A stretch of DNA of 64,000 nucleotides from Streptococcus mitis (lineage in GTDB: Bacteria > Bacillota > Bacilli > Lactobacillales > Streptococcaceae): positions 46,595-110,594 of the forward strand of contig MKYF01000001.1 of the NCBI GenBank assembly GCA_001914195.1. Reading direction: 5' to 3'. Below the pieces are notes generated by a model that saw only the letters and a program-made list of their open reading frames with translations, was not told the DNA's origin and did not search any database. Positions 7,736-62,486 of the stretch are shown here, piece after piece. How positions within the stretch are numbered: the stretch's first letter is position 1; every line of letters begins with the position of its first letter. A program made the position numbers and the translations under genes.

Positions 7736-7887
7736 TACTCTTCGAAAATCTCTTTAAACCATACTAGCGTCGCCTTGCCGTAGGTATATGTTACTGACTT
7801 CGTCAGTCTTATCCTGCAACCTCAAAGCAGTGCTTTGAGCAACCTGCGGCTAGTTTCCTAGTTTGCTCTTTGATTTTCATTGAGTAT
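7736..7887 (+). repeat. BOX element (boxA-boxB-boxC)
   Basis: It starts with tactcttcgaaaatctcttt, has an internal box with ..cctcaaagcagtgctttgagc.., and ends with ttgctctttgattttcattgagtat. This is the same family as six other copies in the window. Confidence 0.85.
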
Positions 7888-9155: not shown

Positions 9156-9351
9156 TACTCTTCGAAAATCTCTTTAAACCATACTAGTGTCGCCTTGCCG
9201 TAGGTATATGATACTGACTCTGTCAGTTCTATCCACAACCTCAAAACAGTGTTTTGAGCTGACTTCGTCAGTTCTATCTGCAACCTCAAAGCAGTGCTTT
9301 GAGCAGCCTGTGGCTAGCTTCCTAGTTTGCTCTTTGATTTTCATTGAGTAT
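9156..9351 (+). repeat. BOX element with two boxB copies
   Basis: It has boxA, two tandem boxB units, and boxC (ends ...ttgattttcattgagtat). Confidence 0.85.
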
Positions 9352-9467: not shown

Positions 9468-10505
9468 ATGAAAGCATACACAGAGCGTGTATTTGGAAAT
9501 GTTGAGGGCAAGGATGTCTTGGTCTATCGTTTTGAGACGGACGGTGGCTACCAGCTTGAAGTCATGAATTATGGTGCGACTATCTTGCGCTATGTCACGC
9601 CTGACAAGGCTGGAAATTTTGCCAACGTTATCTTGGGGTTTGATGACTTTGATAGCTATGTAGGCAATAGCCCCAAGCATGGAGCGAGCGTAGGTCCTGT
9701 GGCAGGACGTATTGCAGGTGCGACATTTGAGCTCAATGGCAAGACTTATGACCTTGAAGTCAACAATGCTAGCAACTGTAATCACAGTGGTTCAACAGGT
9801 TGGGATTCGAGCTTGTTTGAACTAGTTGAAGTGAGCGACCATGGTCTGACCCTCTATACAGAGCGTACAGATGGGACAGGAGGATTTCCTGGAAATCTCA
9901 AGATTTGGATCAGTTATCACTTGGAAGAAACTGGTGCCTATGAAATCAGCTACAAGGTAACGACCGATCAGGATACGCTGGTTAATCCAACTAATCACAG
10001 CTACTTCAACTTGTCTGGTGATTTCACGCAGACGATTGACCGTCATGTCTTCCAGCTAAATACTGAGGGCATTTATCCAATCGCTCCCGACGGTGTTCCG
10101 GCCAAAACTCCAGATGCCAATCGTGACGTAGTAAAACACATCTACAATGGTGCCTTGTTGAAAGACATCTTTGCAGAAGAAGATGAGCAAATCCAGCTGG
10201 TATCTGGCTTGGATCATCCATTTGCTCTTCCTGTGGATCATGATAATGCTGGTTTCCTTTATGATCAAGACTCAGGTCGCTTCCTGCTCTTCAAGACAGA
10301 GGCTCCTTGCTTTGTGGTCTACACAGCAAACTTTGTGGATGAAAGTGTCATCATAGGAGGTCAGCCAATGCTACAGCACAATGGGATTGCTCTTGAAGCG
10401 CAAGCTTTACCAGATGCCATTCACAGTGACCTCAAAGACCAAGTCATTCTTAAAGCCGGTCAAACCTTCACTAGTAAGACACGTTATGAGCTTGTTGTGA
10501 AGTAA
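9468..10505 (+). CDS. galM: Aldose 1-epimerase (galactose mutarotase)
   Basis: 345 aa, mutarotase fold. It is the last gene of the bgaC-PTS-agaS-galM cluster. Confidence 0.85.
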   Translation: MKAYTERVFGNVEGKDVLVYRFETDGGYQLEVMNYGATILRYVTPDKAGNFANVILGFDDFDSYVGNSPKHGASVGPVAGRIAGATFELNGKTYDLEVNNASNCNHSGSTGWDSSLFELVEVSDHGLTLYTERTDGTGGFPGNLKIWISYHLEETGAYEISYKVTTDQDTLVNPTNHSYFNLSGDFTQTIDRHVFQLNTEGIYPIAPDGVPAKTPDANRDVVKHIYNGALLKDIFAEEDEQIQLVSGLDHPFALPVDHDNAGFLYDQDSGRFLLFKTEAPCFVVYTANFVDESVIIGGQPMLQHNGIALEAQALPDAIHSDLKDQVILKAGQTFTSKTRYELVVK

Positions 10506-10513
10506 AGAAAGCT

Positions 10514-10586
10514 GGGAAAAAGTCTTTAAATTTAGAAAAACACATATTGTCGGGTGCTGAAAGTTTGATAATATGTGTTTTATTAT
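10514..10586 (+). repeat. SPRITE-like terminator hairpin repeat (copy 1)
   Basis: The prefix gggaaaaagtctttaaat is followed by a near-perfect 15-bp stem, aaaacacatattgtc/gataatatgtgtttt, and then Ts. A paralogous copy is at 12148-12220. Confidence 0.5.
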
Positions 10587-10824
10587 GGAAAGATTTATAG
10601 TTCGTTGAATCAATAGCAGGACAAATAAGTTTATAAAATATTATGAAAAATCAGTTTGAATTTCTCAATCAACTTGTTCATATTCTATTTCAATCTACTA
10701 TACTTTCTCTTATCCTGAAATGATGTTATTACTCAGCATCTCTTGAGTTGTCTGACTTGACTTTCTTGATGGAAATTATATAACAGTTGTAACAAAAATA
10801 ACTACAACTAAAAAAGGACCATTT

Positions 10825-11772: not shown

Positions 11773-11801
11773 TTGACAAAGGAGCTGATTAGAGATATAA
11801 T
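11773..11801 (+). promoter_or_regulatory. Consensus promoter (TTGACA-17-TATAAT) of csoR-like gene
   Basis: ttgacaaaggagctgattagagatataat, 27 nt upstream of the 11829 start. Confidence 0.45.
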
Positions 11802-11828: not shown

Positions 11829-12086
11829 ATGACAAACTCAAAGTATATTACTCGTTTGAAACGTTCAGAGGGTCAGTTGCGTGGGATTCAAAAGATGATT
11901 GAAGAAGATCGTGACTGTGCTGATATTGTTACGCAACTAACAGCCGTGAAATCTAGTGTAGAGCGCGTGATTGAGATGATAATTACCGAAAACCTTACTG
12001 AATGCATCAACCAGCCGCTAGATGATCCTGAAGCTCAAAAGGAACGCCTAGAAAAGGCTATCCGATACTTGATTAAACGGAAATAA
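11829..12086 (+). CDS. CsoR/CstR-family (DUF156) metal/persulfide-sensing transcriptional repressor
   Basis: 85 aa, all-helical. The Cys and His ligand residues (C in RDCADIV, H/C in ENLTECI) sit at the positions of the CsoR/RcnR/CstR sensing site. The size is typical for the family. Confidence 0.7.
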   Translation: MTNSKYITRLKRSEGQLRGIQKMIEEDRDCADIVTQLTAVKSSVERVIEMIITENLTECINQPLDDPEAQKERLEKAIRYLIKRK

Positions 12087-12147
12087 AGAGATGAGAGTTG
12101 CAAAGATCTCTGCTATTAGAATAGTTGAATGTGAATCAAGAGAGGCT

Positions 12148-12220
12148 GGAAAAAGTCTTTCAAATAAGAAAAACGCATAGTATCAGGTGTTGAAAGCTTG
12201 ATACTATGCGTTTTGTTATG
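12148..12220 (+). repeat. SPRITE-like terminator hairpin repeat (copy 2)
   Basis: The prefix ggaaaaagtctttcaaat is followed by a perfect 15-bp stem, aaaacgcatagtatc/gatactatgcgtttt, and then Ts. It lies downstream of csoR-like. Confidence 0.5.
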
Positions 12221-12230
12221 TAGAGACTTA

Positions 12231-12333
12231 TACTCTTCGAAAATCTCTTCAAACCGCGTCAACGTCGCCTTGCCGTACTCAAGTATAGCCTGCGGCTAGT
12301 TTCCTAGTTTGCTCTTTGATTTTCATTGAGTAT
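12231..12333 (+). repeat. BOX element (boxA-boxC, no boxB)
   Basis: tactcttcgaaaatctcttcaaacc ... tttgattttcattgagtat. Confidence 0.8.
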
Positions 12334-12379
12334 TACTTCATTTTCTCCTGAAATTGAGTTTTTGCCCAGCTCCTTTTGA

Positions 12380-12676
12380 TTATTCTACTTGCCCTAGCCA
12401 AGCATTCATACCACCTTCTACATTGATAACGTTGAGGCCTTGGGCGCTGAGAAATTGACAGGCAGAGGCAGAACGCACTCCTCCTTGACAGATGATATGG
12501 TATTCATGGTCAGGATTGAGTTCTTTGTAGCCTTGTTCCAAGGTACTTAACGGAAGATTTTTGGCACCTGGTGCATGTCCTGCTTGGAATTCATGTACTT
12601 CACGGACATCGATAAGCTCTAGATTTTCATTTTGATATTTTTCATAAAAGTCAGCCATGCTGATATTAGTTTCCAT
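12380..12676 (-). CDS. Single-domain rhodanese (sulfurtransferase)
   Basis: 98 aa, with the active-site loop CQGGVRS. Confidence 0.8.
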   Translation of the reverse strand: METNISMADFYEKYQNENLELIDVREVHEFQAGHAPGAKNLPLSTLEQGYKELNPDHEYHIICQGGVRSASACQFLSAQGLNVINVEGGMNAWLGQVE

Positions 12677-14321
12677 ATTCTACTCCTTCTGGCTTAGCCG
12701 TTTTGTATAGTGAATAAGCGCCGTCAAGGTTTTGGACGGTAAATCCTGCTTGTTTGAGGATACGCTCTGCGATATAGCTGCGCAAACCACTGTGGCAGCT
12801 AACGATGTAGGCTTGGTTCTTGTCCAGTTCGTCCAAGCGTTCCCGTAGTTCGTTTAGGGGGATGTGGATGGTATCGACTTTGAGTCTACCACTTTGGAAT
12901 TCGCCACTTGTCCGTACATCAAGGAATTTCTTACCTTTAGCCAGTTCGTCTTCGAGCTGATACCATTGAATATTGTCGCTGAGACCTTCGATAAGGTTCA
13001 AGGCTGCGTAGCCCAGCATATTGACGGGATCCTTGGCAGAGCCAAATGGTGGCGCATAGGTGAACTCCAATTCTGGTAAGTCAAAGACGGAGAGATTTCC
13101 CTTGATAGCAGTTGCTAGGATATCGATTCGCTTGTCAACACCTTTCTTCCCAACTCCTTGGGCACCGTAGATTTTTCCAGTGGTTGGGTCAAAGAGGAGC
13201 TTCAAGGTCATATCAGTAGCACCTGGATAATAACTAGCGTGGTCTTTCCCACTGACATGGAGGGCCTTGTAAGGAAGTTGATTCATGCTAAGGATACGCT
13301 CGCTGAGACCAGTCGAAGCAGCTGTCATATCAAAGGCACGAACGATAGTAGTGCCGATACTGCCCTTGTTTGTACGTTCTAGTCCTGCGATGACGTCTGC
13401 CACTTGGCGTCCCTGACGATTGGCAGGAGAAGCGAGAGAGATGAGAGCGTCTTGGCCCGTAATCTCTTGCTTGACGACGATGGAATCCCCAACTGCAAAA
13501 ATATCTTTTTGACTGGCTTCGTAATGTTCATCTACAAGAATCCCACCTCTAAGTCCCAGTTCAATCCCCGCAGTTTTGGCCAGTCCGTTTTCAGGTTCAA
13601 CACCGACAGAAAGGATGGTGAGGTCAGAAGTGATCTTTTGACCGTTTTCGAGAACGATGACTTTTCCTTGCTCTTCAAATCGAGTCGCAGACTGAGAAGT
13701 GATAACGCGAACGCCGTTTTTAACCAATTCTTCCTGGACAAAGGCTGCCATTTCTTGATCTAATGATGGTAAAACATGGGGTGCTTTTTCAACAATAGTA
13801 ACTTGCAATCCACGTTTCGCCAGGTTTTCAGCCATTTCAAGTCCGATAAAGCCTGCACCGATAACGACAGCTTCTTTTGGATGATTGTCCAAGGCTGCCA
13901 TAATTTCATCGAGATCGGGAACGTTGCGAAGCGTGTAGGTATTTTTAGTTTCTGCCAAACCCTCAATGGCAGGAACAAATGGTTTAGCTCCTGGGGAGAG
14001 GATCAGCTTGTCGTAGCTTTCTATGAATTCCTGTCCATCGTGTCGCACCGTCACAGTGTGTTCTGCTGGGGAAATACTGATGACCTCGTGAAATGGTCGC
14101 ACGTCCAGATTAAAGCGTGCCTTGAGACTTTCAGGAGTTTGGACCAATAAACTATCACGGTTTGCAATTTCTCCTGAAACATAGTAAGGAAGTCCGCAGT
14201 TTGCAAAGGAAACAAAGGGACCTTTCTCAAAAATAGTGATTTCAGCGTCTTCCATGAGACGTCTGAGACGGGTTGCTGCTGACATTCCGCCTGCAACTCC
14301 CCCGACAATGATAATTTTCAT
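12666..14321 (-). CDS. CoA-disulfide reductase fused to a C-terminal rhodanese domain (CoA-persulfide reductase-like)
   Basis: 551 aa. The FAD/NAD(P) fold is GxGxxG (KIIIVGGVAGG). The CoADR active-site Cys is in SFANCGLPYYV. The C-terminal rhodanese has CHSGLRS. Confidence 0.85.
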   Translation of the reverse strand: MKIIIVGGVAGGMSAATRLRRLMEDAEITIFEKGPFVSFANCGLPYYVSGEIANRDSLLVQTPESLKARFNLDVRPFHEVISISPAEHTVTVRHDGQEFIESYDKLILSPGAKPFVPAIEGLAETKNTYTLRNVPDLDEIMAALDNHPKEAVVIGAGFIGLEMAENLAKRGLQVTIVEKAPHVLPSLDQEMAAFVQEELVKNGVRVITSQSATRFEEQGKVIVLENGQKITSDLTILSVGVEPENGLAKTAGIELGLRGGILVDEHYEASQKDIFAVGDSIVVKQEITGQDALISLASPANRQGRQVADVIAGLERTNKGSIGTTIVRAFDMTAASTGLSERILSMNQLPYKALHVSGKDHASYYPGATDMTLKLLFDPTTGKIYGAQGVGKKGVDKRIDILATAIKGNLSVFDLPELEFTYAPPFGSAKDPVNMLGYAALNLIEGLSDNIQWYQLEDELAKGKKFLDVRTSGEFQSGRLKVDTIHIPLNELRERLDELDKNQAYIVSCHSGLRSYIAERILKQAGFTVQNLDGAYSLYKTAKPEGVEYGN

Positions 14322-14341
14322 TGATTTTCTCCTTTATGCTT

Positions 14342-14647
14342 CTAGATGACTTTTCCTGTCCAAGCGCTCATACCGCCTCGGACATTGATGACATCATAGC
14401 CTTCTTTCTTTAGCTTTTTAGCAGCCATCTTACTACGCACACCAGAATGACAAATGACATAAAGTGTTTCTTTTGTTGTTGGTGTATAGGAACCAATTTC
14501 GGTCAGAGGAACATTCTTGGCATTTTTGATATGACCTCTACGAAATTCCATTGGCGTCCGAACATCTAGTAGCTGAATTGGTTCCTTGAGTTTAGCTTCT
14601 AACTCGCTGGTAGAAATACTGTCAATTTTTGTAAATAAGTGAAACAT
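14342..14647 (-). CDS. Single-domain rhodanese (sulfurtransferase), first gene of the operon
   Basis: The ORF track 14342..14659 uses TTG. The ATG is at 14647 (MFHLFTKID...), with a GGAGGTG RBS 4 nt upstream. The active site is CHSGVRS. Confidence 0.8.
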   Translation of the reverse strand: MFHLFTKIDSISTSELEAKLKEPIQLLDVRTPMEFRRGHIKNAKNVPLTEIGSYTPTTKETLYVICHSGVRSKMAAKKLKKEGYDVINVRGGMSAWTGKVI

Positions 14648-14658
14648 AGGCACCTCCA

Positions 14659-14681
14659 AATATACCCTTATGGGGTATATT
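14659..14681. promoter_or_regulatory. Perfect 9-bp inverted repeat (aatataccc-N5-gggtatatt), candidate CsoR/CstR-type operator overlapping the -10 of the rhodanese operon promoter
   Basis: The palindrome is AATATACCC TTATG GGGTATATT, immediately upstream of the RBS. On the minus strand, TTGACA-17-TTTAAT lies directly upstream and abuts it. It resembles ATACC-N-GGTAT-type CsoR-family operators. Confidence 0.55.
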
Positions 14682-14823
14682 AAACCATGAAGTCAAGCTT
14701 TTGTCAAGCAAGTTGTTTTGACTTGAGATGGGGAATGGTTTCGATAGTTTAGAAAGCAGCCTATTCTTGACCTTTCAAAGTCTTTTTGATATGATGGGCT
14801 CAAAGTAAGTGTGAGGTATAAAG

Positions 14824-15381
14824 ATGACCAGCGAATATCAGAAAATGATTGCAGGAGAGTTTTACCGTCCATCGGACCCAGAACTGAGAGCCTTGGTTCA
14901 GGTTTCTCGCCAAAAACAGGTCGCCTTTAACAAGGAAGAAGATCCCTTGAAAGGGACGGAAATTATCAAGACTTGGTTTGGGTCAACTGGGCAAAATCTC
15001 TATGTCAATCCATGACTGGTAGTCGATTATGGGGTCAATATCCATCTAGGGGAAAATTTTTATTCTAATTGGAACTTGACCATGCTGGATGTTTGTCCAA
15101 TTCGCATCGGGGACAATGCTATGATTGGCCCCAACTGTCAGTTCTTGACTCCACTCCATCCACTGGACCCGCAGGATCGTAATTCAGGTGTGGAATACGG
15201 CAAGCCTATTACCATCGGAGACAATTTCTGGGCTGGAGGTGGCGTCATTGTCCTTCCTGGAGTGACACTGGGCAATAACGTAGTGGCTGGAGCAGGGGCT
15301 GTGATCACCAAATCTTTCGGTGACAATGTTGTCCTAGCTGGTAATCCCGCGCGTGTGATTAAGGAGATACCTGTGAAATAG
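14824..15381 (+). pseudogene. Maltose/galactoside O-acetyltransferase (hexapeptide-repeat, Maa/LacA family) interrupted by an in-frame TGA
   Basis: ORFs 14824..15015 and 15076..15381 are in the same frame, separated by a single TGA at 15013-15015 (...[19 protein letters not shown]...). Together they give a full-length Mac-domain plus left-handed beta-helix acetyltransferase. Confidence 0.7.
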
Positions 15382-20594: not shown

Positions 20595-20745
20595 TACTCT
20601 TCGAAAATCTCTTTAAACTACGTCAACGTCGCCTTGCCGTAGGTATAGGTAACTGACTTCGTCAGTATTATCTACAACCTCAAAGCAGTTCTTTGAGCAA
20701 CCTGCGGCTAGTTTCCTAGTTTGCTCTTTGATTTTCATTGAGTAT
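20595..20745 (+). repeat. BOX element (boxA-boxB-boxC)
   Basis: tactcttcgaaaatctctttaaac ... cctcaaagcagttctttgagc ... tttgattttcattgagtat. Confidence 0.85.
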
Positions 20746-49098: not shown

Positions 49099-49294
49099 AT
49101 ACTCAATAAAAATCAAAGAGCAAACTAGGAAGTTAGCCGCAGGTTGCTCAAAACAGTGTTTTGAGGTTGCAGATAGAACTGACGAAGTCAGCTCAAAACA
49201 GTGTTTTGAGGTCGCAGATAGAACTGACGAAGTCAGTAACATATATCTACGACAAGCCGACGCTGACGTGGTTTAAAGAGATTTTTGAAGAGTA
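49099..49294 (-). repeat. BOX element (reverse orientation, two boxB copies)
   Basis: atactcaataaaaatcaaagagcaa ... two copies of ctcaaaacagtgttttgagg ... aaagagatttttgaagagta. Confidence 0.85.
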
Positions 49295-50788: not shown

Positions 50789-50902
50789 TACTCTTCGAAA
50801 ATCAAATTCAAACCACGTCAGCTTCCATCTGCAACCTCAAAACACTGTTTTGAGCAACCTTCGGCTAGCTTCCTAGTTTGCTCTTTGATTTTCATTGAGT
50901 AT
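50789..50902 (+). repeat. BOX element (boxA-boxB-boxC, short)
   Basis: tactcttcgaaaatcaaattcaaacc ... tttgattttcattgagtat. Confidence 0.8.
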
Positions 50903-62339: not shown

Positions 62340-62486
62340 ATACTCAATGAAAATCAAAGAGCAAACTAGGAAGCTAGCCGCAGGTTGCTCAAAGCATTGC
62401 TTTGAGGTTGTGGATAGAACTGACGAAGTCAGCTCAAAACACTGTTTTGAGGTTGCAGATGGAAGCTGACGTGGTTTGAAGAGTAT
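62340..62486 (-). repeat. BOX element (reverse orientation)
   Basis: tactcaatgaaaatcaaagagcaaactagg ... gaagagtat. Confidence 0.85.

What the first reader, a model, noticed from the sequence alone, without database searches (positions are those of the whole stretch)
11829..14681. CsoR/CstR-like repressor paired with a rhodanese, CoADR-rhodanese, rhodanese operon carrying a perfect palindromic operator; regulator and target split by a BOX element
- **Operator and promoter:** the three-gene minus-strand operon is preceded by AATATACCC-TTATG-GGGTATATT (14659-14681). That is a 9-bp perfect inverted repeat of the ATACC...GGTAT type bound by CsoR-family repressors. It overlaps the -10 of a TTGACA-17-TTTAAT promoter.
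- **Regulator:** the only CsoR-family gene nearby (11829-12086) is convergent, 250 nt beyond the operon end, with a BOX element and a SPRITE-like hairpin in between. It lacks the palindrome in its own promoter.
- **Function:** the CoADR-RHD fusion is the enzyme class shown to reduce CoA persulfide. That suggests a reactive-sulfur-species (persulfide) sensing and detoxification unit rather than a copper regulon.
Basis: partly seen in the sequence, partly recalled or inferred. Interest (0 to 1): 0.6.

Follow-up and report, generated by a model that had tools for sequence, protein, structure and literature searches.

The report
Known streptococcal CstR persulfide-sensing operon

Summary
AATATACCC-TTATG-GGGTATATT sits at 14659-14681 and is unique in the window even at 3 mismatches. 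It overlaps the -10 of a TTGACA-17-(TGg)TTTAAT promoter that drives rhdB (14342-14647), coaP (12666-14321) and rhdA (12380-12676) on the minus strand.

The convergent 85-aa gene (11829-12086) is a CsoR-family protein with Cys30-Asn55-Cys59, the CstR sensing pattern. It has no histidine at the copper-ligand position. It matches the crystallised S. pneumoniae CstR at 80 of 84 aligned residues.

Fakhoury et al. (NAR 2021, PMC8643695) characterised this system in S. mitis SVGS_061. Their 34-nt operator oligo equals window 14651-14684 except at its first base. They measured Ktet of about 1.4e8 M-1, loss of binding after cysteine persulfide, and sulfide induction of rhdA, coaP and rhdB.

The BOX "split" is incidental: 7 of 10 loci encoding the identical CstR lack the BOX. 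The convergent layout with a shared SPRITE-like hairpin is the usual state, seen in 9 of those 10.

The palindrome arms are generic to CsoR-family operators across phyla, mostly beside copper-type C-H-C proteins. The operator alone does not show sulfur specificity; the protein residues and the target genes do.

The parts
11773..11801 (+). cstR promoter, TTGACA-17-TATAAT (12 of 12 consensus positions), with no CstR operator
   Evidence: Promoter scan. No palindrome or half-site nearby.
11829..12086 (+). cstR: an 85-aa CsoR-family persulfide-sensing repressor with Cys30, Asn55 and Cys59
   Evidence: PF02583, E = 3e-25. 80 of 84 aligned residues identical to SpCstR structure 7MQ1. Only CsoR-family ORF in the window.
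12130..12226 (.). SPRITE-like, AT-rich terminator element. Its 19-bp hairpin (12170-12214) has an A-tract on one side and a T-tract on the other, so it can terminate both convergent transcripts.
   Evidence: Fold: -27.8 kcal/mol, z = -6.3. An 80%-identical 98-nt copy lies at 10496-10593. The hairpin is present in 9 of 10 related loci, with a compensatory G/C swap in the stem. It fits the published SPRITE description (PMC3049150).
12229..12333 (.). BOX element (boxA-boxC, no boxB), 105 bp. It lies in the 3' UTR of the rhdB-coaP-rhdA transcript and is a strain-variable insertion.
   Evidence: The boxC end occurs 7 times in the window. Copies are aligned. The site is empty in 7 of 10 loci encoding the identical CstR.
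12380..12676 (-). rhdA: a 98-aa single-domain rhodanese with active-site loop C63-QGGVR. Its start overlaps the coaP stop by 11 nt.
   Evidence: PF00581, E = 1.4e-18. Cysteine positions. Gene naming follows PMC8643695.
12666..14321 (-). coaP: a 551-aa CoA-persulfide reductase. It is a CoA-disulfide-reductase-type flavoprotein (Cys42) fused to a C-terminal rhodanese domain (Cys509).
   Evidence: Pfam Pyr_redox_2, Pyr_redox_dim and Rhodanese. TIGR03385 at 477.7 bits, below its 578.8 equivalog cut-off. 898 bits to E. faecalis CoAPR 8A56.
14342..14647 (-). rhdB: a 101-aa single-domain rhodanese with active-site loop C66-HSGVR. It is the first gene of the operon.
   Evidence: PF00581, E = 2.9e-18. 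GGAGG at 14657-14653 precedes ATG 14647.
14659..14681 (.). cst operator: a perfect 9-5-9 palindrome, AATATACCC-N5-GGGTATATT, covering the end of the -10 and the expected transcription start
   Evidence: Unique in the window. One copy at the same position in all 10 loci with the identical CstR. Contained in the oligo used for published binding assays.
14679..14707 (-). Operon promoter: -35 TTGACA (14707-14702), 17-nt spacer ending in TGg, -10 TTTAAT (14684-14679)
   Evidence: Sequence. Phylogenetic footprint across 25 loci.

Best explanation
This is the CstR-controlled "cst-like" persulfide response of mitis-group streptococci.

**Regulator.** cstR is transcribed from its own perfect sigma-70 promoter. 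That promoter has no operator, so cstR is probably not autoregulated (inferred).

**Repression.** Reduced CstR binds the single palindrome at 14659-14681; the published binding data were fitted with a two-tetramer model. The palindrome overlaps the -10 and the transcription start of the rhdB-coaP-rhdA promoter, so bound CstR should block RNA polymerase. The position is shown here; the occlusion is inferred.

**Induction.** Persulfides and other sulfane-sulfur donors react with Cys30. Di-, tri- or tetrasulfide bridges then form to Cys59 of the neighbouring subunit. DNA affinity falls by more than 200-fold and the operon is derepressed. This is published for the S. mitis protein and this operator.

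**Response.** CoAPR uses its flavin and Cys42, together with the rhodanese Cys509, to reduce CoA persulfide to CoA and H2S. RhdA and RhdB move sulfane sulfur. These activities are published for the E. faecalis enzymes and inferred here from about 75% identity and conserved cysteines.

**Termination.** Both convergent transcripts end at a shared bidirectional SPRITE-like hairpin. In this strain a 105-bp BOX element has inserted between rhdA and that hairpin, so it is carried in the operon's 3' UTR. It is not part of the regulatory logic.
For: - **Operator and promoter.** Coordinates and uniqueness are confirmed. The promoter-operator block is nearly invariant in 25 loci while the flanks diverge.
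- **CstR.** PF02583. Cys30, Asn55 and Cys59. 80 of 84 residues identical to SpCstR structures 7MQ1-7MQ3.
- **CoAPR.** 898 bits to 8A56, with Cys42 and Cys509 conserved.
- **Published experiments (PMC8643695).**
  - The S. mitis cst operator oligo TACCTCCAAATATACCCTTATGGGGTATATTAAA equals window 14651-14684 apart from its first base.
  - Ktet was 1.4e8 M-1 for SmCstR and 2.2e8 M-1 for C9A SpCstR.
  - Ktet fell below 6.3e5 M-1 after CysSSH, and the effect was reversed by TCEP.
  - rhdA, coaP and rhdB were induced by 0.2 mM Na2S.
- **Enzyme activities.** CoAPR specificity for CoASSH and thiosulfate sulfurtransferase activity of RhdA and RhdB are reported in PMC9405070.
- **Conserved layout.** The same order, glyoxalase > cstR > < rhdA < coaP < rhdB, with one operator, occurs in all 10 loci carrying the identical CstR.
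Against: - Nothing contradicts the explanation, but no experiment was done on this exact strain.
- I could not retrieve the SVGS_061 sequence (CP014326), so I could not confirm that its CstR is identical to this one.
- The -10 hexamer TTTAAT lacks the usual A at position 2. The promoter assignment therefore rests on the TGn extension and on conservation, not on a mapped 5' end.
- The cellular donors and acceptors of RhdA and RhdB are unknown even in E. faecalis.
- The palindrome arms are also used by copper-type CsoR proteins, so operator sequence alone would not exclude copper control.
Confidence: 0.93

Rival explanations
1. It is a copper-responsive CsoR regulon. The 85-aa protein would bind Cu(I) and derepress the operon under copper stress.
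For: The protein belongs to PF02583, and its best NCBIfam matches are copper and nickel repressors, all far below their cut-offs. The PDB entries for the near-identical protein still carry the legacy name "Copper-sensing transcriptional repressor csoR". The same palindrome arms lie next to C-H-C (copper-type) CsoR genes in 40 loci from other phyla.
Against: The Y-position histidine needed for Cu(I) ligation and allostery is Asn55. No copA or copZ lies nearby, and the targets are sulfurtransferases and a CoA-persulfide reductase. The literature states that Cu(I) binding does not release CstR from DNA; this is cited there for S. aureus CstR. It also shows that the S. mitis system responds to sulfide and CysSSH. 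From general knowledge, streptococci control copper through CopY.
Confidence: 0.02
2. The repressor is a general thiol-oxidant and electrophile sensor (tetrathionate, nitroxyl, peroxide, disulfides). Persulfide would be only one of several physiological inducers.
For: Tetrathionate also abolishes DNA binding of the streptococcal CstR, and the paper measures reactions with H2O2, GSSG and cystine. Nitroxyl induces CstR regulons in S. aureus and E. faecalis (titles and abstracts).
Against: The regulated enzymes are specific to sulfane-sulfur chemistry. The abstract of the 2021 paper frames CstR as a persulfide sensor that works without crosstalk from copper sensing. I did not read the per-oxidant kinetic data in detail, so I cannot say from them how selective the protein is.
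Confidence: 0.04
3. The palindrome is a dispersed repeat or a structural element, such as a terminator or a mobile-element end, rather than a repressor site.
For: The neighbourhood is rich in repeats: 7 BOX elements in 64 kb and 2 SPRITE-like copies. The exact arms recur in at least 119 places in the genome collection.
Against: There is a single copy in the window and in each related locus. It always lies between the -10 and the ribosome-binding site of rhdB. Elsewhere, 65 of the 119 8-kb blocks carrying it also encode a CsoR-family protein, usually within 50 nt. Direct binding has been measured.
Confidence: 0.01

Closest known systems
Streptococcus mitis SVGS_061 cstR (AXK38_00620) with rhdA-coaP-rhdB (AXK38_00625 to 00635), Fakhoury et al., NAR 2021
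   Same: Same four genes, with the operator upstream of rhdB. The published 34-nt operator oligo matches window 14651-14684 at 33 of 34 positions, including the whole palindrome. Like this protein, the S. mitis CstR is about 95% identical to S. pneumoniae CstR.
   Different: This is probably a different strain; related S. mitis-type loci are 91-96% identical in DNA. I could not check whether SVGS_061 carries the BOX element at this site or whether its CstR sequence is identical.
Enterococcus faecalis CstR and its cst-like operon (RhdA, CoAPR, RhdB)
   Same: Same enzyme set and the same regulator cluster (SSN cluster 10). The CoAPR here aligns over its full length with structure 8A56 (898 bits), and both cysteines are kept.
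   Different: It is a different genus, and the CstR cysteines are numbered C31 and C62 there. I did not compare gene order or operator position in E. faecalis.
Streptococcus pneumoniae D39 SPD_0073 (SpCstR; PDB 7MQ1, 7MQ2, 7MQ3)
   Same: 80 of 84 aligned residues are identical, with the same Cys30, Asn55 and Cys59. SpCstR binds the S. mitis operator with equal affinity.
   Different: D39 has lost rhdA-coaP-rhdB through a precise deletion, so its CstR is an orphan. The window keeps the complete operon. The window protein has Arg9 where D39 has the non-conserved Cys9.
Staphylococcus aureus CstR with cstA-cstB-sqr
   Same: Same family, the same two-cysteine persulfide chemistry, and a CsoR-type GC-centred palindromic operator.
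   Different: It sits in a more distant sequence cluster. The target set differs: a multidomain sulfurtransferase, a persulfide dioxygenase and sulfide:quinone reductase, rather than CoAPR plus two small rhodaneses.
Copper-sensing CsoR (Mycobacterium tuberculosis and Bacillus subtilis type, x-C-H-C)
   Same: Same fold, and in many genomes exactly the same operator arms, AATATACCC...GGGTATATT.
   Different: CsoR has histidine at the Y position, regulates copA and copZ, and is usually autoregulated from an operator just upstream of its own gene. Here the residue is Asn55, the targets are sulfur enzymes, and the operator lies 2.6 kb from the regulator gene.

Membership tests
CstR (persulfide-sensing CsoR-family repressor) | CsoR/RcnR-family fold (Pfam PF02583) | tested here: met
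   88.8 bits against a cut-off of 22.8, covering residues 3-79.
CstR (persulfide-sensing CsoR-family repressor) | x-C-x-C motif: Cys at the X and Z positions and no His at Y | tested here: met
   Cys30, Asn55 and Cys59; these are the only two cysteines. The motif definition comes from PMC8643695.
CstR (persulfide-sensing CsoR-family repressor) | Close sequence relationship to a biochemically validated CstR | tested here: met
   80 of 84 aligned residues identical to SpCstR 7MQ1 (E = 5e-47). Copper, nickel and formaldehyde sensors score E = 1e-12 or weaker.
CstR (persulfide-sensing CsoR-family repressor) | A cst operator in the promoter of linked sulfurtransferase or persulfide-metabolism genes | tested here: met
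   The palindrome overlaps the -10 of the rhdB-coaP-rhdA promoter. It is conserved in 25 loci.
CstR (persulfide-sensing CsoR-family repressor) | Operator binding that is released by persulfide and not by Cu(I) | not testable with these tools
   Persulfide release is published for S. mitis CstR and C9A SpCstR on an oligo identical to the window operator. The passages read cite the Cu(I) result for S. aureus CstR. Neither was measured for this strain.
CoA-persulfide reductase (CoAPR, a CoADR-rhodanese fusion) | CoADR-type pyridine-nucleotide disulfide oxidoreductase domain with a single active-site Cys | tested here: met
   Pyr_redox_2 and Pyr_redox_dim. Cys42 lies in the SFANCGLPYY motif and aligns with 8A56. 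It scores below the plain CoA-disulfide reductase equivalog cut-off (477.7 against 578.8). That model matches only residues 2-437 and does not cover the C-terminal rhodanese domain.
CoA-persulfide reductase (CoAPR, a CoADR-rhodanese fusion) | C-terminal rhodanese domain with a catalytic Cys | tested here: met
   PF00581 covers residues 455-540. Cys509 lies in the VSCHSGLRS loop and aligns with the E. faecalis rhodanese cysteine, C508 in that paper.
CoA-persulfide reductase (CoAPR, a CoADR-rhodanese fusion) | NAD(P)H-dependent reduction of CoASSH | not testable with these tools
   Inferred from 898 bits of full-length similarity to the characterised E. faecalis enzyme.
BOX element (pneumococcal interspersed repeat) | boxA and boxC terminal modules, present in many copies in the genome | tested here: met
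   The boxC end occurs 7 times in the window at 0-1 mismatch. The aligned copies show boxA, 0-2 boxB modules, then boxC; this copy has no boxB.
BOX element (pneumococcal interspersed repeat) | Presence/absence polymorphism with an identifiable empty site | tested here: met
   The spacer is 188-191 bp in 7 of 10 loci and 293 bp here, a difference of 105 bp at ...ACT|TA.... Larger BOX elements (boxA-boxB-boxC) occupy the same site in L002 and, beside an IS200-like insertion, in L010.
SPRITE (pneumococcal terminator-like repeat) | A duplex of about 18 bp flanked by AAAA and TTTT, AT-rich, close to the 3' ends of convergent genes | tested here: met
   A 19-bp stem with an A-tract and a T-tract, 35% GC, between convergent genes. 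The description is in PMC3049150.
SPRITE (pneumococcal terminator-like repeat) | Match to the SPRITE HMM or consensus, and multi-copy status | tested here: inconclusive
   The model and consensus were not available. One paralogous 98-nt copy (80% identity) lies at 10496-10593. No further copies occur in 64 kb.
Copper-sensing CsoR | His at the Y position (x-C-H-C), with copA or copZ as neighbours or targets | tested here: not met
   Asn55 occupies the Y position. No copper genes flank the locus.

The most novel reading that the evidence does not exclude
The BOX element inserted in the 3' UTR of rhdB-coaP-rhdA might change mRNA stability or termination efficiency at the shared bidirectional hairpin. 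It is present here and in some strains and absent in most. If it has this effect, read-through antisense to the non-autoregulated cstR would also change, giving strains different set-points for the persulfide response.
Probability: 0.1. Interest if true: 0.3.

Novelty: already known. Interest (0 to 1): 0.12.

Why it matters
The locus shows how oral and respiratory streptococci sense and clear reactive sulfur species. These species matter in H2S-rich periodontal biofilms and for tolerance to oxidants and antibiotics. The system, its operator and its inducer chemistry were already established in S. mitis and E. faecalis, and a structure exists for a 95%-identical protein.

This window therefore adds one more intact copy and some comparative detail:
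- The BOX insertion is incidental.
- cstR is not autoregulated, unlike most CsoR-family genes that carry the same operator arms.
- Some species have lost coaP.

None of this opens a new question.

Tried and rejected
1. **Second CstR sites.** I looked in the window and in the cstR promoter using a 3-mismatch search and relaxed ATACC...GGTAT scans. None were found.
2. **Rfam.** Only sub-threshold hits appeared: V_AS7 (60 bits against 90) antisense within coaP, and SpF22 (36.5 against 55) over the rhdA 3' end, with a weaker hit in rhdB. I considered that SpF22 might be a remnant of the operon deleted in pneumococcus. I rejected this because the match is only about 65% identical and also hits the paralogous rhdB, so it reflects rhodanese coding similarity.
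3. **Intrinsic-terminator scan.** It missed the 12170-12214 hairpin; direct folding recovered it.
4. **Background papers.** I tried to read Grossoehme 2011 for the S. aureus operator sequence, but it is not held. I also looked for supplements to the 2021 paper to obtain the S. mitis CstR sequence; none are held.
5. **Species assignment.** The window could only be narrowed to an S. mitis-type streptococcus. The best DNA identities are 95-96%, to loci from unnamed assemblies and to S. mitis OMI673.
6. **Searches not run.** I did not run the large protein searches or structure prediction, because a crystal structure of a 95%-identical protein already exists.
Full report
**1. The observation**

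The sequence AATATACCC-TTATG-GGGTATATT is at 14659-14681, exactly as reported. It is the only match in the 64-kb window even when 3 mismatches are allowed, against 0.01 expected from shuffles. Looser CsoR-type patterns find no other site.

Read on the minus strand, the upstream region has these parts:
- -35 TTGACA at 14707-14702.
- A 17-nt spacer ending in TGg.
- -10 TTTAAT at 14684-14679.
- The palindrome, which shares the last 3 nt of the -10.
- GGAGG at 14657-14653.
- ATG at 14647.

The TTG start at 14659 given by the ORF lister lies inside the operator and is unlikely to be the real start. The consensus promoter scan did not report this promoter because it demands A at -10 position 2. An alignment of 25 Streptococcus and Gemella loci supports the assignment. 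The block from about 10 nt upstream of the -35 through the start codon is almost invariant, while everything further upstream is unrelated between loci.

**2. The genes**

- **cstR, 11829-12086 (+).** It encodes an 85-aa PF02583 protein and is the only CsoR-family ORF in the window. Its two cysteines are Cys30 and Cys59, and the position that carries the Cu(I)-ligating histidine in CsoR is Asn55. It matches the crystallised S. pneumoniae CstR (7MQ1) at 80 of 84 aligned residues. Copper, nickel and formaldehyde sensors are far more distant.
- **coaP, 12666-14321 (-).** It encodes a 551-aa CoA-disulfide-reductase-type flavoprotein with a C-terminal rhodanese domain. It aligns end to end with E. 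faecalis CoA-persulfide reductase 8A56 at 898 bits. Cys42 and the rhodanese Cys509 are kept.
- **rhdB, 14342-14647, and rhdA, 12380-12676 (-).** Both are single-domain rhodaneses with CxxxxR active-site loops.
- **Coupling.** coaP and rhdA overlap by 11 nt, and rhdB and coaP are 20 nt apart, which fits one transcript.

**3. This system is already characterised**

Fakhoury et al. (NAR 2021, PMC8643695) studied S. mitis SVGS_061 cstR (AXK38_00620), rhdA (00625), coaP (00630) and rhdB (00635).
- Their binding substrate was 5'-TACCTCCAAATATACCCTTATGGGGTATATTAAA. This equals window 14651-14684 except at the first base.
- Ktet was 1.4e8 M-1 for S. mitis CstR and 2.2e8 M-1 for C9A S. pneumoniae CstR, using a two-tetramer model.
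- Ktet fell below 6.3e5 M-1 after cysteine persulfide and below 3e5 M-1 after tetrathionate. The loss was reversible with TCEP.
- All three target genes were induced by 0.2 mM Na2S.
- The paper notes that S. pneumoniae D39 has lost the operon by a precise deletion, leaving SPD_0073 as an orphan.

The E. faecalis work reports that CoAPR specifically reduces CoA persulfide and that RhdA and RhdB have thiosulfate sulfurtransferase activity (PMC9405070).

The exception is a copper titration of the streptococcal protein, which I did not find in the passages read.

**4. The gap between regulator and operon**

The exact 85-aa protein is very common in public assemblies; the index lists it in 11,079 blocks. 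All 10 loci inspected have the order glyoxalase > cstR > < rhdA < coaP < rhdB. Each has one exact operator at the same distance from rhdB.

The cstR-rhdA spacer varies between loci:

| Locus | Spacer length | Content |
|---|---|---|
| 7 of the 10 loci | 188-191 bp | no BOX |
| Window | 293 bp | 105-bp boxA-boxC element at 12229-12333 |
| L002 | 341 bp | boxA-boxB-boxC element at the same site |
| L010 | 1159 bp | IS200-like transposase gene plus a boxA-boxB-boxC BOX |
| L007 | 804 bp | DUF3642 gene |

The BOX identity is clear: its boxC end occurs 7 times in the window, and the copies align as boxA, 0-2 boxB modules, then boxC. The "split by a BOX element" is thus a strain polymorphism. BOX elements are known to be over-represented between convergent genes (PMC3049150).

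The hairpin at 12170-12214 has a 19-bp stem and folds at -27.8 kcal/mol (z = -6.3). It is flanked by an A-tract and a T-tract. It is present in 9 of the 10 loci (all but L007), with a compensatory G/C exchange in the stem. A 98-nt paralogous copy (80% identity) lies at 10496-10593, downstream of the aldose-epimerase gene. It fits the published description of SPRITE: an 18-bp duplex, AAAA/TTTT ends, AT-rich, and enriched between convergent genes. The SPRITE model itself was not available for a formal test.

On the operon strand, the BOX is transcribed before this hairpin is reached. On the cstR strand, the hairpin comes first.

**5. What the palindrome does and does not tell us**

By my own estimate, about 9 would be expected by chance. 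The hits come from many phyla.

In 65 of the 119 8-kb blocks a CsoR-family ORF is also present, usually within 50 nt of the palindrome. Classified by the X-Y-Z sensing residues, there are 40 C-H-C proteins (copper type). The 8 C-N-C proteins all come from Streptococcus or Gemella.

The arms are therefore the generic CsoR-family recognition sequence. They are not a repeat element, and they are not a marker of sulfur sensing. Specificity is read from the protein residues and the regulated genes.

The streptococcal case is unusual in one respect. The operator lies 0.8-2.8 kb from the regulator gene, and cstR has its own perfect TTGACA-17-TATAAT promoter without an operator. cstR is therefore probably not autoregulated.

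**6. Mechanism**

- **Shown by published work on the same system:** reduced CstR binds the operator, and persulfide modification of Cys30 and Cys59 releases it.
- **Shown here:** the operator overlaps the -10 and the expected start.
- **Inferred:** bound CstR occludes the promoter; cstR is expressed constitutively; CoAPR and the rhodaneses act as in E. faecalis; both transcripts end at the shared hairpin.

**7. Verdict**

The novelty class is "already known". Confidence in the explanation is 0.93 and interest is 0.12. The only reading with any novelty is that the BOX element in the 3' UTR tunes expression in a strain-specific way. Nothing here supports it beyond the element's position.

Noticed in passing
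window 14824-15381 (+): A maltose/galactoside O-acetyltransferase (Mac/hexapeptide) gene, divergent from rhdB, is interrupted by an in-frame TGA at 15013-15015. The intact 187-aa orthologue in L004 has Arg64 (CGA) at this position, so this is probably a nonsense pseudogene.
   Followed up: partly
window 7855-7887, 9319-9351, 12301-12333, 20713-20745, 49099-49131, 50870-50902, 62340-62372 (boxC ends): There are 7 BOX elements in 64 kb, about 0.11 per kb. [quoted passage not shown] They carry 0, 1 or 2 boxB modules.
   Followed up: partly
window 10496-10593: A second copy of the SPRITE-like terminator element (80% identity over 98 nt) overlaps the last 10 nt of the aldose 1-epimerase gene and extends downstream. 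The two copies bracket the glyoxalase and cstR genes.
   Followed up: partly
L042 6640-7670; L029 6220-7046: Some streptococcal genomes (uncultured Streptococcus UMGS867 and Streptococcus sp. KHUD_014) keep the operator, rhdB and rhdA but lack coaP. In KHUD_014, three unrelated genes also separate cstR from the operon.
   Followed up: partly
L010 6400-7330; L007 6367-6834: The same cstR-rhdA spacer holds an IS200-like transposase gene plus a BOX in one genome and a DUF3642 lipoprotein-like gene in another. The site appears to be an insertion hot spot between convergent genes.
   Followed up: no
L011-L129 (genome contigs pattern hits): The exact arms AATATACCC...GGGTATATT recur across many phyla, including Patescibacteria, Bacillota, Actinomycetota, Pseudomonadota, Chloroflexota and Bdellovibrionota. 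They usually lie within 50 nt of a CsoR-family gene, mostly of the C-H-C type. DNA recognition in the family seems largely fixed while the sensed ligand varies.
   Followed up: partly
L002, L003, L005, L007 (coaP region): coaP is called as two ORFs in 4 of the 10 loci. All four come from the BNJ* metagenome assemblies. This could be real frameshifts or assembly indel errors; I did not resolve which.
   Followed up: no
window 14134-14302 (+) and 12368-12477 (-): Two sub-threshold Rfam matches fall inside coding sequence: V_AS7 (60 bits against 90) and SpF22 (36.5 against 55). They most likely reflect conserved oxidoreductase and rhodanese coding similarity rather than RNA genes.
   Followed up: yes
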